From: Clostridia bacterium
GTDB lineage: Bacteria; Bacillota; Clostridia; Oscillospirales; CAG-272
DNA: 64,000 nt
Direction of reading: 5' to 3'
NCBI GenBank assembly: GCA_017937135.1
Contig: JAGBEE010000042.1
Coordinates: forward strand, 11,885 to 75,884
Shown: piece by piece, positions 5,403-43,343 of the stretch
Position numbering within the stretch: position 1 is the stretch's first letter
How the letters are laid out: every line of letters begins with the position of its first letter
Notes under the pieces: model-generated
Told to the model about the DNA's origin: nothing
The model's database searches: none
The model's input: only the letters and a program-made list of their open reading frames with translations
Program-made: the position numbers and the translations under genes

Positions 5403-5565
5403 ATGAAGCACACCTGCAGTGCATTAAGACACTTTGTTAATGAAGTCGGCTTCGCCTAATGAAGTCGCTTCGCTAATTATTTTGTGTGCTTCGCTTCATA
5501 CGAACGGAGTGAGTGCTTCATTGTTGCGTAGCAACTGCTTCATATTGACAAAGTCAATGCTTCAT
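5403..5565. repeat. Mirror array A: 4x ATGAAG-type then 4x GCTTCAT with hairpin spacers
   Basis: ATGAAG/ATTAAG at 5403, 5423, 5440, 5459; GCTTCAT at 5493, 5515, 5537, 5559 (22-bp period). Confidence 0.85.
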
Positions 5566-5580
5566 TAAAAGGAGTAATTT

Positions 5581-5928
5581 ATGAAAGACGATAAATTATC
5601 AATACAGTCTATGGATTTTGCTGTATCAATTATTGAGCTTGTAAAAAGCTTAAAGGAAAAGCGAGAGTCTATAATTTCAAATCAAATCGGCAGAAGCGGT
5701 ACAAGCATTGGTGCAAACATTCGTGAAGCTCAATATGCACACGGAAAAGCAGATTTTATCGCAAAGCTTCAAATTGCTCTTAAAGAAGCAAATGAAACAG
5801 GCTATTGGCTTGAATTACTTTTTAGAACAAATTATATTGATGAAAGTACATATAAGTCACTAAACAATGCTTGCACAAGCATTCGTGTAATGCTAATTTC
5901 CTCTATAAATACATCAAAGCAAGGCTGA
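5581..5928 (+). CDS. Four helix bundle protein (23S rRNA IVS protein / bAvd-like family)
   Basis: QIGRSGTSIGANIREA...DFIAKLQIALKEANETGYWLELL family signature; AAAGGAG RBS. Confidence 0.92.
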   Translation: MKDDKLSIQSMDFAVSIIELVKSLKEKRESIISNQIGRSGTSIGANIREAQYAHGKADFIAKLQIALKEANETGYWLELLFRTNYIDESTYKSLNNACTSIRVMLISSINTSKQG

Positions 5929-19439: not shown

Positions 19440-20530
19440 TTTGCCTCCATATTTATTAGTTCTTTATATCTTAATTTTTTGGGAATTGATTTTTGCGCGC
19501 TAACGCTCTTTCCCTCGCTTATAAATGTATCAACCGCTTTTTGAACCTTGTTTAAATCGCTTTTGTCTGAATACAAAATAAGCATATCTACATCGTATTC
19601 CTTTTTGTCAAAGCATATTTTTTCTAAGAGATTTGTGTAAATAGCAAAGCCTACTCCGCTTGATGTCTTGCCCATTTTTTCAAGAAGCTTGTCGTATCTG
19701 CCACCAAAAAGCACGCTCTCAAATATGCCCTTTATAAATCCGTTGAATACTATTCCGTTATAGTAATTCATATCGTTTACTATTGAAAAGTCGATACGAA
19801 TATTGTCAAGGTCCTCTGTGCCCTCAAGCATTTTTATAAGCGACTTTAATTCATTTACTGCCAATTCAAGCTCATTATTAGCCTTGAAGCTATCAAGTCT
19901 TTCAAATACTGATTTTGGGCTACCATAAATGCCGACAAAGCTTGAAAGCATTTGCGCCTTTTCATCATCAACGCCATATTTTTGGCATATTGCGCTTATT
20001 TCGTGTGCGCTCTTCTTTTTTATACATTCAGCAATTTCACTCTTAAAATTATCATTTGCGCTTATGCTATTTAAAAGCGCAGACAATATTCCCATATGCG
20101 AAATCTCTAAAACATAGTCGCTTGAAACTGTATTTAAGGTCTTCATTGCAAGACAAAGCGTCTCGTACATATCGTATAGGTCAATATCACCTATACATTC
20201 AAGACCCATTTGCATAATTTCCTCAAATTCTCTTGTGTTTCCGGAAATTCTATATACATTTTCATTATAATATACCTTGTTTTTTATGCCCCTTGCATCG
20301 GATGCATTTTTAATAATTGACAAGGTTACGTCCGGCTTTAATGCAAGAAGCTTGCCATTTGTATCAGTGAAGGTTATTATACCGTCGCCAACTAAAAAAT
20401 CCTTGTTTTTTGCATATAGGTCATATTCCTCAAATTTATTCATCTTGTATGGAAGATAACCATACTTTGAATATAGTGAGCGTAATGCCACTATAATTTT
20501 TTCCTCACTCTTTAGGTATTTCTCTATCAT
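19436..20530 (-). CDS. hisZ: ATP phosphoribosyltransferase regulatory subunit
   Basis: HisRS-like: LKPDVT, YYNGIVF, GGRYD; adjacent to short hisG. Confidence 0.9.
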   Translation of the reverse strand: MIEKYLKSEEKIIVALRSLYSKYGYLPYKMNKFEEYDLYAKNKDFLVGDGIITFTDTNGKLLALKPDVTLSIIKNASDARGIKNKVYYNENVYRISGNTREFEEIMQMGLECIGDIDLYDMYETLCLAMKTLNTVSSDYVLEISHMGILSALLNSISANDNFKSEIAECIKKKSAHEISAICQKYGVDDEKAQMLSSFVGIYGSPKSVFERLDSFKANNELELAVNELKSLIKMLEGTEDLDNIRIDFSIVNDMNYYNGIVFNGFIKGIFESVLFGGRYDKLLEKMGKTSSGVGFAIYTNLLEKICFDKKEYDVDMLILYSDKSDLNKVQKAVDTFISEGKSVSAQKSIPKKLRYKELINMEAK

Positions 20531-20817
20531 TTCTTGCCCTCTAATCTATCAAGTATCATTGAATATCCACCGTTTCCATATTCAAGGCATCTATTAACTC
20601 GGCTAATTGTTGCTGTGCTCATGCCTGTTTCCTTTGTTATATCGGCATAGTTTGCGCCACTTCTTAGCATACTTGCTGCTTTAAGTCTTTGAGCTATTTC
20701 TAAAACCTCTTTTACTGTGCAGGCATCCTCGAAGAATTTATAGCACTCTTCTACTGAATTTAATGATAATATTGCTTCAAACAGCTTATCTACTGCTTCA
20801 TTATGCAATTTGTTCAT
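20527..20817 (-). CDS. yerC: YerC/YecD TrpR-like regulator (probable his operon repressor)
   Basis: ECYKFFEDACT..E...IAQR and STATISRV.RCL.YG motifs; first gene of the his operon. Confidence 0.88.
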   Translation of the reverse strand: MNKLHNEAVDKLFEAILSLNSVEECYKFFEDACTVKEVLEIAQRLKAASMLRSGANYADITKETGMSTATISRVNRCLEYGNGGYSMILDRLEGKK

Positions 20818-20860
20818 TTTATGCTCCTTTTTATCATTGGTAAAAAAATTTATGTTTTAA

Positions 20861-20908
20861 CGCTTTAGTGTACTAAAATATTATAATACTTTTATTTTAT
20901 ATTGTCAA
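20861..20908 (-). promoter_or_regulatory. his operon sigmaA promoter with adjacent palindromic operator
   Basis: Minus strand TTGACA (20908-20903)-17 bp-TATAAT (20885-20880), directly followed by TTTAGT-GT-ACTAAA. Confidence 0.8.
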
Positions 20909-20950
20909 TAGTTTATATTATATTTATGTAAGAAAAAACAGATGCACAAA

Positions 20951-21428
20951 TGCGTGTTATCCTTAACGGAGAACACGCAATGAATTGCAACCTTGCGGTT
21001 GCATGAATTGAAAGCTGTGCTTTCGTGAATTGCCTGCGGCATGAATTGTGCTTTACGGCACATTGGTTGCAATTCAATTCATGTGAGCGACGAATTGCAC
21101 AGCAATTCCGCGAGCAAATCATGGCGGAGCCAATTCATGATGCGTATGCATCAATTCATTCATAAAAACGAACAGAGCAAGAATAGAAGGAGGTTTATCC
21201 TTTCACTCTTGCTCTGTTAGTATAAAGTGATATTCTTTGCTGACGCAAAGAGTGATATTGTCGCACAGCGACAGTGATATTGAAGCCTTGTGGCTTCAGT
21301 GATATTCTATTCGCCCTAAACTTGCGTAGCAAATATAACTCGGCATAAGCCGAATATCACTGCGTAGCAATAGAACTCGCCAAAGGCGAATAGAGTTAGC
21401 GTGATACTCCGTTAAGAGTATCACGCTA
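20951..21428. repeat. Composite non-coding palindromic element: two mirror arrays, a central hairpin and related terminal hairpins in inverted orientation
   Basis: ATGAATTG-type x4 then CAATTCAT-type x4 (20980-21159); AGTGATATT x4 then AATATCACT-type x4 (21226-21397); end hairpins share CTTAACGGAG on opposite strands. Confidence 0.85.
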
Positions 21429-21446
21429 TTGTGCATCTGTTTTTAA

Positions 21447-21824
21447 TTATTTTATTACTGCAATAAGCTCAACCTCTACAAGCGCGCCCTTTGGTAAATC
21501 CTTTACTGCAACACAGCTTCTTGCTGGCTTTTGAGTAAAGTATTTTGCATAAACACCATTGAAGCTTGCAAAGTCGTTTATATCGTATAGGAAGCACGTA
21601 GTTTTTACTACATTTTCAAAGCTTGTGCCTGCTTCCTCTAAAACTGCGCCGAGGTTTTTCATAACCTGCTCAGTTTGCGCTTCAATATCGGTTGCTTCTA
21701 TATTTCCACTCTCTGGATTTATCGGAATTTGTCCTGAGGTATAAAGCATATTTCCACAAATTATCGCCTGTGAATATGGTCCTATTGCTCCAGGTGCTTT
21801 ATTTGTTGCTACTTTTTTTAACAT
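21447..21824 (-). CDS. ridA: RidA-family enamine/imine deaminase
   Basis: [26 protein letters not shown]. Confidence 0.93.
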
Positions 21825-21834
21825 ATTTCTCTCC

Positions 21835-23028
21835 TTATATAAGCTTAAAGCCAAATTCGGTAAGTGCCCTTTTTATTTGCTCTATATGGTCGTAATTTCT
21901 TGTTTCAAGCACTATTCTCAAATAGCATCCATTTACGTCTGAGCCCTCGTTTGCTCTTTCGTGGTGAACGGAAATTACATTACCACCAAGGTCAGCAATT
22001 ATACGTGAAACATTCTTTAATTGTCCCGGCTTGTCAGCAAGCTCTATCATAAACTGACATGTTCTTCCAGACATTAGAAGTCCTCTTTTTATTACTCTTG
22101 ACAAAATTGTAACATCTATGTTACCGCCTGAGAGCAAGCACACTACCTTTTTGCCCTTTATATCAAGCTTGCCAAACATTGCAGCGGCAACTGCTATTGC
22201 TCCAGCGCCCTCAGTAACAAGCTTTTGCTGCTCCATAAGTGCTAAGATAGCTGCTGAGATTTCATCATCAGTTACGCTAACTATATCGTCAACATATTTT
22301 TTGCAAATTTCGTATGTAAGATTACCAGGCTTTTTAACAGCGATACCATCAGCAATTGTTGAAACGCTTGAAAGCTCCTCGATTTGAGAATGCTTTACAG
22401 AGTTAAGCATAGATGGCGCTCCACTTGCCTGTACACCATAAACCTTAACCTTGGGGTTGAGCATTTTTATTGTGTAGGCAACGCCTGAGATAAGTCCTCC
22501 ACCACCTATTGGCACTATTACTGCGTCAAGGTCGGGAAGCTGGTCAATAAGCTCTAAGGCTATTGTGCCCTGTCCCGCTATAACGTCCTCATCATCAAAT
22601 GGATGAATAAAGGTATAGCCCTTCTCGTCACGGAGCTGAAGTGCTTTTTTGTATGCGTCATCATAAACACCCTCTACTAAGCATACCTCTGCGCCATAGC
22701 TTTTTGTTGCTTCAATTTTAGAAATTGGCGCTCCGTCGGGCAAGCAAATTACTGCCTTTATTCCGTTCTTTTGAGCTGAAAGAGCGACACCCTGTGCGTG
22801 ATTTCCTGCTGAGCAGGCTATAACGCCTCTTTCCTTTTCCTCTTGGCTAAGGCAAGACATTTTGTAGTAAGAGCCTCTTACCTTGAATGAGCCTGTTACC
22901 TGTAGGTTTTCTGTTTTAAGATAGATTTGCGCATCCTTTACGAGCTTTGGTGCGTAAATTACGTCTGTTTTACGAATTACGCCCTTTAATGCGTAGCTTG
23001 CGCGATATACGTTATCAAGTGTTAACAT
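21835..23028 (-). CDS. ilvA: Threonine ammonia-lyase with C-terminal ACT domain
   Basis: [40 protein letters not shown]. Confidence 0.95.
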
Positions 23029-33907: not shown

Positions 33908-34178
33908 TAAAATAAAATAGCCTCTTGATACAACACGCACCTATCGTATTGTAAAAAGAGACGAAGTATTCTCCGCGGTACCACTCTTAATTGGTGCTTT
34001 GCACCCACTCTGCGCCTTGTCTATCAACAAAGCCTCTCTGTAACGGGAGAGCCCGACCAAGCCTACTATTTTTCGGTTGGTAGCTCCGGGATGAGAATGT
34101 CTTTATAATCATACTGTCTTGCACCAACCGCCAGCTCTCTGAAATGATATTTGGGGACATATTTCCCTTCATCGCTTA
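33908..34178 (-). promoter_or_regulatory. T-box riboswitch, probably Leu (CUC specifier), leader of the leu-ilv operon
   Basis: Minus strand: AGAGAGC AG-box, GGTGCAA loop motif, CTC at 34095-34093, T-box AATTAAGAGTGGTACCGCG, then a hairpin with U-tract. Confidence 0.9.
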
Positions 34179-34190
34179 TATATATTATAT

Positions 34191-43267: not shown

Positions 43268-43343
43268 CGAGATGTAGCGCAGTTGGTAGCGCGCATGCTT
43301 TGGGAGCATGATGCCGTGAGTTCGAGTCTCGCCATCTCGACCA
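43268..43343 (+). tRNA. tRNA-Pro (TGG)
   Basis: CGAGATG/CATCTCG acceptor stem, CATGC-TTTGGGA-GCATG anticodon arm, GTTCGAG T-loop, CCA. Confidence 0.96.

What the first reader, a model, noticed from the sequence alone, without database searches (positions are those of the whole stretch)
20980..21159. Mirror array B (ATGAATTG x4 / CAATTCAT x4)
Seen: ATGAATTG at 20980, 21003, 21025 (GTGAATTG), 21041, then CAATTCAT at 21075, 21115 (CAAATCAT), 21131, 21152. Spacers are distinct hairpins (GCAACC-TTGC-GGTTGC, GAAAGC-TGT-GCTTTC, GCC-TGC-GGC, GGC-GGA-GCC, GATGC-GTAT-GCATC). Same design as the 5403 array, but the cores share only ATGAA. Inference: architecture is conserved more than sequence.
Basis: seen in the sequence. 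Interest (0 to 1): 0.72.

Follow-up and report, generated by a model that had tools for sequence, protein, structure and literature searches.

The report
Mirrored Gut-1-like word-and-hairpin repeat array
The mirror array is real and is a diverged relative of the little-studied 'Gut-1' RNA motif, sitting here inside a 521-base self-folding repeat element that is scattered through the genomes of uncultured gut Clostridia, usually tucked inside transcription terminators.

Summary
Array B is not a stand-alone feature. It is one module of a 521-nt, highly self-complementary element (window 20933-21444). That element lies between the ridA stop codon and the his-operon promoter.

Element order: locus-specific terminator-like outer stem, end hairpin T', array B, central hairpin H, array C, end hairpin T.

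Rfam's Gut-1 model (RF01706; four GUGAAAU words separated by three hairpins) matches below its threshold of 50 bits: array C at 42.6 and 39.4 bits, array B's forward half at 31.7 bits. Canonical Gut-1 loci in related genomes are mirrored in the same way.

The family is multi-copy and modular. The word differs between subfamilies; the hairpin spacers keep their structure, not their sequence.

Best reading (0.5): a non-coding, BIME/BOX/MITE-like interspersed repeat nested in terminator stems, whose mirrored arrays zip it shut. Mobility, transcription and any protein partner are not shown. Rivals: an sRNA or protein sponge, a DNA-binding array, or REP-like single-stranded DNA sites.

The parts
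20880..20908 (-). His-operon promoter (TTGACA, 17 nt spacer, TATAAT). It lies just outside the element and sets its context.
   Evidence: 12 of 12 consensus matches on the - strand, 20908 to 20880. Downstream genes are a Trp_repressor-family protein and a HisZ-like protein.
20933..20948 (.). Outer stem, left arm (AAAAAACAGATGCACA). Locus-specific and terminator-like.
   Evidence: (I1), and folds. It pairs with 21430-21444. The same kind of locus-specific inverted flank is seen at other copies.
20951..20979 (.). End hairpin T' (GCGTGTTATCC-TTAAC-GGAGAACACGC).
   Evidence: (I10). It is a variant of the conserved T hairpin.
20979..21048 (+). Array B, forward half: words at 20980, 21003, 21025 and 21041 separated by three hairpins.
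   Evidence: Gut-1 (RF01706) match at 20978-21052, 31.7 bits, E 2.4e-4, below the threshold of 50 bits. Hairpins supported on 25 aligned copies.
21047..21074 (.). Centre of array B: hairpin TGTGC-TTTACG-GCACA (21047-21062) and a linker GGTTGCAATT that is complementary to the start of the array.
   Evidence: (I5).
21075..21160 (+). Array B, mirrored half: reverse-complement words at 21075, 21115, 21131 and 21152 with hairpin spacers, including the inner hairpin 21092-21108.
   Evidence: I19-I22. No Gut-1 match on the - strand at E up to 10.
21168..21221 (.). Central hairpin H (24-nt arms, 83% complementary). It is shared by the array-B unit and the array-C unit and looks terminator-like by eye.
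   Evidence: I3; folds; the module recurs at other loci. The simple terminator scan does not flag it.
21225..21310 (+). Array C, forward half (AGTGATATT x4 with three hairpins).
   Evidence: D2. Gut-1 match at 42.6 bits, E 4e-7.
21328..21398 (-). Array C, mirrored half. Read on the - strand it is a Gut-1-like half-array.
   Evidence: Gut-1 match at 39.4 bits, E 2.6e-6. It is nearly identical to GUGAUAUU-type rows of the published Gut-1 seed alignment.
21397..21428 (.). End hairpin T (TAGCGTGATACTC-CGTTAA-GAGTATCACGCTA; a 13-nt palindrome arm on each side).
   Evidence: I9, 13 nt, 100%.
21430..21444 (.). Outer stem, right arm (TGTGCATCTGTTTTT). It starts 2 nt from the ridA stop codon (21447-21449).
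   Evidence: (I1). The ridA-family call is from Pfam.

Best explanation
What it is. Array B is an internal module of a non-coding, multi-copy, modular interspersed repeat of uncultured gut Clostridia. The repeat is built from Gut-1-type units: a constant 7-9 nt word followed by a short variable hairpin, repeated about four times and then repeated again as the reverse complement.

The copy in the window. It is a head-to-head fusion of two units that share one central hairpin (T'-arrayB-H and H-arrayC-T). It is enclosed by a locus-specific stem plus T-run, which looks like the ridA terminator with its loop replaced by 480 nt.

How I think it works (inferred). The mirrored words pair with each other and every spacer folds on itself, so on either strand the insert collapses into a closed, branched rod. 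That brings the two arms of the host stem back together. The host terminator or 3' end therefore stays functional and the insert is tolerated. It may add protection of the 3' end or insulate the his promoter.

Shown: the anatomy; the repetition within and between genomes; the conservation of structure rather than sequence; the position directly after stop codons inside inverted flanks.

Not shown: how the element spreads; that it is transcribed; that it benefits the host.
For: Self-complementarity. The 521-nt element folds at -225.4 kcal/mol on the + strand (z -14.2) and -221.8 kcal/mol on the - strand (z -15.3), with 0 of 100 shuffles as good.

Spread. BLAST of three element queries against the own genome merges into 44 places, 15 of them at least 180 nt long, several at contig ends. 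28 of 41 related genomes, G000 included, match the element.

Modules. Printed and folded copies show the plan T - array (word AATGATGT, ATGAATTG or AGTGATATT) - H - R.

Gut-1 matches. Sub-threshold matches fall on arrays B and C. The own genome has 15 sub-threshold matches, arranged as facing pairs. In a sample of the order, 50 of 151 genomes have matches above threshold, with up to 29 per genome, which is the scoring cap. In 10 top loci, 9 of 11 best Gut-1 matches are followed 19 nt later by an opposite-strand match.

Flanks. The two sides of a copy share an inverted stretch holding at least 5 G/C in 8 of 11 copies, against 0 of 110 non-cognate pairings.

Position. Copies lie within 9-31 nt of a stop codon in most cases and are often between convergent genes. 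In one same-genus genome (L026) the ridA to Trp_repressor spacer is 135 nt and holds a plain terminator with no element.

Hairpins. In 25 array-B half-copies 92.8% of cells are paired, against 25-42% when the partners are slid. 5 of 22 pairs change on both sides. Across 434 unique spacers, 313 hold a perfect stem of at least 4 bp, against 53 after shuffling.

Strand. Both strands fold about equally well in 15 copies, as expected for something that must close when read from either side.

Coding. The two ORFs inside the element have no Pfam match.
Against: No evidence of movement. No empty site was found in the same species. The one metagenome hit with the same stem (L181) is an unrelated locus. 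The contigs laid on the locus showed no joint across the element.

No direct target duplication; the flanks are inverted instead. No element with the same ends and a transposase was seen. The genome has no Y1/RAYT transposase.

Signs of a real function. Canonical Gut-1 plus its mirror (about 190 nt) is almost invariant across 8 genomes. The adjacent terminator stems all differ, variation sits in the loops, and there is one compensatory stem swap. That pattern suggests a genuine function rather than junk. The original authors rated Gut-1 'certainly' an RNA.

Pairing not always possible. Some copies have unequal halves, one forward word with three or four reverse words, or a forward half alone. 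Word-with-word pairing is therefore not always available.

Terminator role unsupported. The simple terminator scan does not flag H.

Transcription untested. The one RNA library laid showed the same excess of depth on the modules as the DNA libraries did.
Confidence: 0.5

Rival explanations
1. A Gut-1-type small RNA. One strand is transcribed as a stable structured RNA. Its repeated single-stranded words, held between hairpins, bind a protein several times over, as a sponge or scaffold does. The mirrored half would be an antisense partner or a second gene.
For: Rfam lists Gut-1 as an sRNA. Weinberg et al. 2010 rated it 'RNA? Y' (passages and table).

Canonical copies show purifying selection on stems and words across 8 genomes.

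The words are identical within an array. Pairing alone does not require that.

Copies with unequal halves exist, which would leave words unpaired.

In nested register the word pairs show 33 G.T against 9 A.C on the forward-half-first strand.
Against: 10-29 copies per genome with different words is unusual for a trans-acting RNA.

9 of 11 top matches carry their own reverse complement 19 nt away. That would sequester the words.

Canonical copies start 4-10 nt after a strong terminator with no room for a promoter. A promoter-like box on the other side is not conserved in its second hexamer (my reading).

The strand tests disagree. Inside the spacers there are 2 G.T against 9 A.C on the sense strand. 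Folding energies are equal on both strands.

The G.T excess in the words rests on about two inherited changes.
Confidence: 0.2
2. A REP/BIME-like site on single-stranded DNA. Each unit, a word followed by a hairpin, is a recognition site for a hairpin-binding nuclease or recombinase that copies or moves the units. This explains a constant word with structurally conserved hairpins on either strand.
For: The unit design, a short conserved word next to a hairpin, resembles what HUH enzymes recognise (recalled knowledge).

Stems are mostly perfect Watson-Crick: 144 of 237 strict spacers have a perfect stem of at least 4 bp, and only 23 have one internal mismatch.

Three-base loops are common, and DNA parameters give the cleanest nested fold.

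Whole units are gained and lost between copies.
Against: No PF01797 match in this genome, which is 93.7% complete and holds at least 15 large copies. Array-rich relatives G022, G011 and G003 also have none.

No other candidate enzyme was identified.

The hairpin sequence is not conserved between units, unlike classical REPs (recalled).
Confidence: 0.13
3. A double-stranded DNA binding array. The words would be iteron-like or transposase-binding sites in two facing blocks, like the ends of a transposon brought together, or like a partition or nucleoid-protein site.
For: The words are identical within an array and occur in direct and inverted blocks.

The words resemble the arms of the end hairpins (GCGTGATAC against AGTGATATT; GCGTGATGT against AATGATGT), so ends and internal words co-vary between subfamilies.

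In one genome two facing half-arrays lie about 320 nt apart around a small gene.
Against: Word spacing ranges over 16-26 nt, with peaks at 16, 18, 20, 22-23 and 25, so there is no helical phasing.

The spacers are selected to be hairpins. A double-stranded site does not need that.

No partner protein and no direct target duplication were found.
Confidence: 0.1
4. A chance arrangement of low-complexity intergenic DNA.
For: None beyond the A+T-rich setting.
Against: 8 arrays against 0 in each of five genome shuffles. There are homologous copies in many genomes. Fold z-scores are -14 to -15 for the element.
Confidence: 0.01

Closest known systems
Gut-1 RNA motif (Rfam RF01706; Weinberg et al. 2010, Genome Biol 11:R31, PMC2864571). 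Seen: main-text passages, Table 1 row, the seed alignment in supplement file 5 part 193, and consensus drawing text in file 6. Additional file 1 (.DOC) could not be read.
   Same: Same design: four copies of a short word separated by three hairpins. Same habitat, gut metagenomes. Array C is nearly identical to GUGAUAUU-type seed rows and scores 42.6 and 39.4 bits. Array B's forward half scores 31.7 bits over the whole model.
   Different: All scores are below the curated 50 bits. Array B's word is AUGAAUUG, not GUGAAAU. The 77-nt model covers only one half, whereas here, and at 9 of 11 top canonical matches, a mirrored half follows. The published description is of a non-coding RNA from unknown organisms. 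Here it is a multi-copy module of a composite repeat, in genomes of uncultured Clostridia, placed inside terminator-like stems.
REP / BIME elements of enterobacteria (recalled knowledge; no paper read for this)
   Same: High-copy palindromic units at 3' gene ends and between convergent genes. They occur in clusters with alternating orientation and short constant linkers, and are foldable on either strand.
   Different: In REPs the palindrome itself is the conserved part and a RAYT transposase is associated. Here the linker word is constant, the hairpins differ from unit to unit, and no PF01797 gene is in this genome.
Pneumococcal BOX and SPRITE repeats (Croucher et al. 2011, PMC3049150: search listing and abstract start only; MITE review PMC10969869: passages)
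   Same: Small, modular, non-coding interspersed repeats with a variable number of internal units (BOX) or terminator-like structure (SPRITE). They are strongly folding, intergenic, and sometimes inserted into one another.
   Different: No sequence relation was tested or expected. BOX internal units are about 45 nt and are not a word plus hairpin. The host lineage differs. Nesting inside a host terminator stem is not something I saw described for them.
Bacterial MITEs (review PMC10969869, passages)
   Same: Under 600 nt, non-coding, multi-copy, with terminal inverted repeats (43-nt arms, 84% complementary, I1). They fold stably and prefer intergenic DNA.
   Different: No direct target-site duplication and no parent insertion sequence was found. 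The flanks are locus-specific inverted repeats.

Membership tests
Gut-1 RNA (RF01706) | Covariance-model score at or above Rfam's gathering score of 50 bits | tested here: not met
   Array B forward half 31.7 bits; array C 42.6 and 39.4 bits. In the own genome 0 of 15 matches are above threshold.
Gut-1 RNA (RF01706) | Four copies of a short word separated by three hairpins | tested here: met
   Full-length alignment to model positions 1-77. Hairpins supported on 25 copies, with 92.8% of cells paired.
Gut-1 RNA (RF01706) | Word GUGAAAU (or GUGAUAUU in part of the seed alignment) | tested here: not met
   Array B's word is (A/G)UGAAUUG. Array C has GUGAUAUU.
Gut-1 RNA (RF01706) | Expressed as a non-coding RNA | tested here: inconclusive
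   One RNA library has contigs on the modules. The excess over the flanks is the same as in DNA libraries, and contigs cannot show strand or ends.
MITE | Terminal inverted repeats, small size, no coding capacity, many copies | tested here: met
   (I1); 521 nt; no Pfam match for the internal ORFs; copies.
MITE | Direct target-site duplication | tested here: not met
   Flanks are inverted, not direct. 8 of 11 copies share an inverted stretch with at least 5 G/C.
MITE | Related autonomous element with the same ends and a transposase | tested here: inconclusive
   All paired ends in the own genome lie 521 nt or less apart. Relatives were not searched exhaustively.
REP / BIME | Associated RAYT (Y1 transposase, PF01797) | tested here: not met
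   0 matches in G000. 21 of 41 genomes have one, without matching the distribution of the arrays.
Rho-independent terminator | G+C-rich stem with a short loop followed by a T-run | tested here: inconclusive
   The outer stem (10 bp plus A/T runs) has T-runs on both strands, but its 'loop' is 480 nt. An identical stem with a 6-nt loop exists in an unrelated metagenome contig. H is not flagged by the scan.
Iterons / partition-site repeats | Words spaced in phase with the DNA helix | tested here: not met
   Spacing is spread over 16-26 nt with several peaks.

The most novel reading that the evidence does not exclude
Gut-1-type arrays may be a distinct, undescribed class of nucleic-acid architecture. 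A freely exchangeable 7-9 nt word and disposable hairpins are mirrored so that the strand zips into a stack of four-way junctions.

This architecture could do one of two things. It could spread as an element that specifically enters the loops of terminator hairpins, by a mechanism that leaves inverted rather than direct flanks. Or it could serve as a selected scaffold or decoy for a word-reading protein. In the second case the near-invariant copy downstream of tRNA genes would be the working gene and the dispersed copies, such as array B, its offshoots.
Probability: 0.2. Interest if true: 0.75.

Novelty: new variant of a known kind. Interest (0 to 1): 0.5.

Why it matters
Gut-1 has sat in Rfam since 2010 as an RNA of unknown function from unknown organisms. 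In the library searched, only two papers name 'Gut-1 RNA', RF01706 or 'Gut-1 motif'.

This locus adds the following:
- A host lineage. 50 of 151 sampled genomes of one order of uncultured gut Clostridia carry matches above threshold.
- The published 77-nt model is only half of a mirrored unit.
- The word can be swapped while the design stays.
- The units are modules of a high-copy repeat that sits inside terminator stems.

Together these turn a name in a database into several testable alternatives. They also warn that Gut-1-like matches in gut metagenomes may be repeat modules rather than sRNA genes. Practically, these repeats break short-read assemblies: several copies lie at contig ends, and depth on the modules is 10-200 times that of the flanks.

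Tried and rejected
Earlier findings.

Rfam at gathering thresholds. Nothing in the region; the Gut-1 relation appeared only with the E-value threshold.

Empty site.
- ridA loci of 20 same-genus genomes were fetched. Nine (G000 included) keep the Trp_repressor gene within the fetched stretch. None of the eight from other genomes carries the element, but their terminator stems differ, so this is a cross-species comparison only.
- Closer relatives have a different neighbourhood.
- A pattern scan of metagenome contigs for the outer stem with a short loop found one locus. It has no similarity to this genome, so the match is a coincidence.

Public runs. Contigs of four runs were laid on 20400-22000. 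No contig bridges the element, no joint removes it, and the RNA library cannot show transcription. The parts without cover say nothing.

Strand of action.
- Folding energies of 15 copies are alike on both strands.
- A first count of wobble pairs (76 T.G against 7 A.C) was an artefact of word-derived bases repeated in every unit.
- The strict count is small and points the other way (2 G.T against 9 A.C).

Orientation relative to genes. Most copies lie between convergent genes, and only about three tandem contexts are informative, so no conclusion.

RAYT partner. Not found.

Promoter for the canonical Gut-1 locus on the far side. The first hexamer is conserved but the second is not (my reading), so the idea was dropped.

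Phage and plasmid collections. One partial 97-nt match in a faecal phage contig; none in plasmids.

Gene-cassette idea for the array-rich contig of G026. The arrays simply occupy ordinary intergenic spacers.

Ideas considered from recall and not pursued. A lox-like reading of the T hairpin geometry; type III antitoxin-like repeats (no toxin gene follows the arrays seen).

Full report
OBSERVATION. ATGAATTG starts at 20980, 21003 and 21041; GTGAATTG at 21025; CAATTCAT at 21075, 21131 and 21152; CAAATCAT at 21115. The five named spacers are hairpins at 20987-21002, 21010-21024, 21032-21040, 21123-21131 and 21139-21152. The repeat finder reports the word pairs as 9-nt, perfectly complementary inverted repeats (I19-I22).

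The base before each word separates the outermost pair (AATGAATTG with CAATTCATT) from the next one (CATGAATTG with CAATTCATG), as nested pairing would need.

Chance is excluded. A scan of the whole 1.85-Mb genome looked for a 7-mer three times forward and then twice as reverse complement. It gives 8 arrays against 0 in each of five block-wise shuffles. The array alone folds better than its shuffles: RNA z -3.27, with 1 of 200 as good; DNA z -4.16, with 0 of 200. With DNA parameters the best fold is the nested design itself.

THE ARRAY IS ONE MODULE OF A LARGER ELEMENT. The 630-nt spacer lies between two genes on the minus strand.
- On one side is a RidA-family gene (21447-21854).
- On the other is a Trp_repressor-family gene (20527-20817), followed by a HisZ-like gene (Pfam). 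By my reading of the ORF translations this opens the his operon.
- A perfect consensus promoter (12 of 12) lies at 20908 to 20880.

Between the ridA stop codon and that promoter lies a 521-nt stretch that folds at -225.4 kcal/mol on the plus strand (z -14.2) and -221.8 kcal/mol on the minus strand (z -15.3). Its parts, in order:
1. Outer stem, AAAAAACAGATGCACA (20933-20948) pairing with TGTGCATCTGTTTTT (21430-21444).
2. End hairpin T' (20951-20979).
3. Array B.
4. Central hairpin H (21168-21221).
5. A second array, C: AGTGATATT four times (21226-21307), then a degenerate mirror.
6. End hairpin T (21397-21428).

The two ORFs inside it have no Pfam match.

IT IS A REPEAT FAMILY. BLAST of three copies against the own genome merges into 44 places. 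15 of them are at least 180 nt long, and several lie at contig ends. Printing and folding 15 copies shows a modular plan: T hairpin, array, H hairpin, then a right-hand module R whose end is an inverted copy of T's outer arm. Three array types fill the same slot, with words AATGATGT, ATGAATTG and AGTGATATT. The window copy is two units head to head that share H.

Array B itself occurs once in full in this genome. There is one short form (one forward word, three reverse) on contig C33. It occurs many times in related genomes. 28 of 41 related genomes, G000 included, match the element.

All of them are labelled as uncultured gut Clostridia of several families. The phage collection holds one partial match and the plasmid collection none.

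WHAT IT IS CALLED. At gathering thresholds Rfam finds nothing here. With E-value thresholds the Gut-1 model (RF01706, 77 positions) matches:
- array C's forward half at 42.6 bits;
- array C's mirror, on the other strand, at 39.4 bits;
- array B's forward half at 31.7 bits (E 2.4e-4).

Each match covers the full model length, and each is below the curated 50 bits.

Weinberg et al. (2010) found Gut-1 only in human gut metagenomes. They rated it certainly an RNA, neither cis-regulatory nor a riboswitch, and listed 43 representatives (for passages and table; for the supplement table row). Their seed alignment contains GUGAUAUU rows almost identical to array C. Their notes in Additional file 1 could not be read. 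Only one other paper in the library names 'Gut-1 RNA', RF01706 or 'Gut-1 motif'.

NEW CONTEXT FOR GUT-1. The own genome has 15 sub-threshold matches and none above threshold, arranged as facing pairs. In a sample of the order, 68 of 151 genomes match at E up to 0.001 and 50 of 151 match above threshold.

In the ten best loci:
- 9 of 11 top matches (88-91 bits) are followed 19 nt later by an opposite-strand match of 42-48 bits, so the canonical motif is mirrored too.
- 9 of 10 loci have a tRNA gene upstream on the same strand, with a terminator in between.

That is the setting of the window's 5403 array, which follows tRNA-Met and tRNA-Glu. The 5403 array itself gives no Gut-1 match at E up to 10.

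Across eight of these genomes the 190-nt array plus mirror is almost invariant. Changes sit in hairpin loops, and there is one compensatory stem swap. The neighbouring terminator stems all differ.

ARCHITECTURE OVER SEQUENCE.
- Of 80 loci with the T hairpin, 48 have an array of at least three exact 7-mers within 320 nt, and 31 of these are mirrored. The words are TGATATT/GTGATAT, TGAAGTT, TGAAATC, TGATGTT, TCGATAT and TCATAAC.
313 spacers contain a perfect stem of at least 4 bp, against 53 after shuffling. These loci were chosen by likeness to the family, so this is a property of the family.
- Word spacing spreads over 16-26 nt with no helical phase.
- For array B's forward half, 25 copies from five genomes align with nearly invariant words. 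92.8% of cells are paired in four hairpins, against 25-42% when partners are slid. 5 of 22 pairs change on both sides. The covariation score is 0.146 against 0.114 in shuffles, with 0 of 500 reaching it. The rows are related, so the shuffle count is not a probability.
- In G022 the second and third hairpins are replaced by unrelated hairpins at the same places.
- Whole units are gained or lost between copies.

WHERE COPIES SIT. Most copies begin 9-31 nt after a stop codon, and many lie between convergent genes. The DNA just outside the two ends of a copy is a locus-specific inverted repeat, usually with A/T runs. 8 of 11 copies share an inverted stretch holding at least 5 G/C, one holds 4, and two hold fewer. 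None of 110 non-cognate pairings reaches 5.

One locus has only a T hairpin inside an 18-bp stem. This looks like a terminator hairpin whose loop has been replaced. In one same-genus genome the ridA to Trp_repressor spacer is 135 nt and holds a plain terminator. None of the eight other genomes that keep this gene pair has the element there. That is a cross-species comparison, not an empty allele.

HOW IT MOST LIKELY WORKS. I commit, at 0.5, to a non-coding interspersed repeat nested in terminator stems. Its mirrored arrays and hairpin spacers make the insert close on itself on either strand, so the host stem can still form and the insert is tolerated.

The anatomy, copy number, position and structural conservation are shown. 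Closure as the selected property, any effect on ridA 3' ends or on insulation of the his promoter, and the way copies spread are inferred.

For ridA transcripts, reading the minus strand, the order is: stop codon, outer arm, T, array C, H, array B, T', outer arm with a run of six T, then the his promoter. Array B therefore lies beyond H. If H terminates transcription, array B would rarely be transcribed here. The scan does not flag H as a terminator.

WHAT SPEAKS AGAINST IT.
- I found no same-species empty site, no direct duplication and no parent element.
- This genome has no Y1 transposase.
- The near-invariance of the canonical copies reads like function.
- Short forms with unequal halves show that pairing of words is not always possible.
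- The identity of the words within an array is not explained by pairing.

Strand evidence is equivocal. Energies are alike on both strands. Word pairs in nested register give 447 Watson-Crick, 33 G.T, 9 A.C and 24 other over 15 copies, but the G.T cells trace to about two inherited changes. A first wobble count was an artefact, and the strict one is small and opposite.

Public-run contigs show only that the modules are 10-200 times deeper than the flanks, in DNA and RNA libraries alike.

RIVALS. A trans-acting Gut-1 RNA or protein sponge (0.2). REP-like sites on single-stranded DNA for an unidentified hairpin enzyme (0.13). A double-stranded binding array or fused transposon ends (0.1). Chance (0.01).

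COMPARISON AND NOVELTY. The array works like, and is distantly related to, Gut-1. It fails the family's score threshold and has a different word, so I file it as a variant, not a member. It resembles BIMEs, pneumococcal BOX/SPRITE and MITEs in lifestyle, but fails the RAYT and target-duplication tests.

What is new here is the mirrored whole unit, the exchangeable word, the host lineage and the terminator nesting. The existence of the motif is not new.

Noticed in passing
window 5403-5570: The '5403 array' (word AATGAAG/CTTCATT with hairpin spacers) follows tRNA-Met, tRNA-Glu and a terminator. It ends at the ribosome-binding site of a 23S_rRNA_IVP-family gene (5581-5928). It is unique in this genome by BLAST and gives no Gut-1 match at E up to 10. 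Its place after tRNA genes is the same as that of canonical Gut-1 loci.
   Followed up: partly
G000 contig C17:9133-9197 and about 25 other loci: A separate repeat of about 60 nt, 85-90% identical between copies, lies beside one element copy and at many other places in the genome. Not examined.
   Followed up: no
G000 C3:35490-35566, C22:143-218, C30:8143-8192: Arrays of the word TGATTCC/GATTCCA (3-4 copies) close to contig ends. They may be a further word family.
   Followed up: no
G000 C10:45126-45192: A Gut-1-like match (35.1 bits) at a locus that the BLAST queries did not find.
   Followed up: no
L198-L200 (G026 contig C25, 55 kb): About 20 half-arrays in ordinary intergenic spacers of one 55-kb contig, mostly as facing pairs. 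They include the words GCGATAT, TCGATAT and a new one, AGCTAAA/ATTTAGC.
   Followed up: partly
L154 1499-2006 (G026): Two facing array-B half-arrays lie about 320 nt apart, around a terminator, a promoter-like stretch and a small ORF of about 75 codons. This resembles the two ends of a larger unit.
   Followed up: no
L181 1501-1534: An unrelated metagenome contig carries exactly the window's outer stem (AAAACAGATGCACA ... TGTGCATCTGTTTT) closed by a 6-nt loop, as a plain terminator-like hairpin.
   Followed up: yes
window 33954-34181 (-) and 43268-43343 (+): A T-box leader (111.7 bits) and a tRNA-Pro gene elsewhere in the window.
   Followed up: no
L007, L161, L174 and other G024 copies of array B, right half: Several right-hand spacers read GAGCGAAGCGAG or GGCGAAGCC. 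From memory, GCGAAGC is known as an unusually stable DNA mini-hairpin. This was not checked in any paper here.
   Followed up: no
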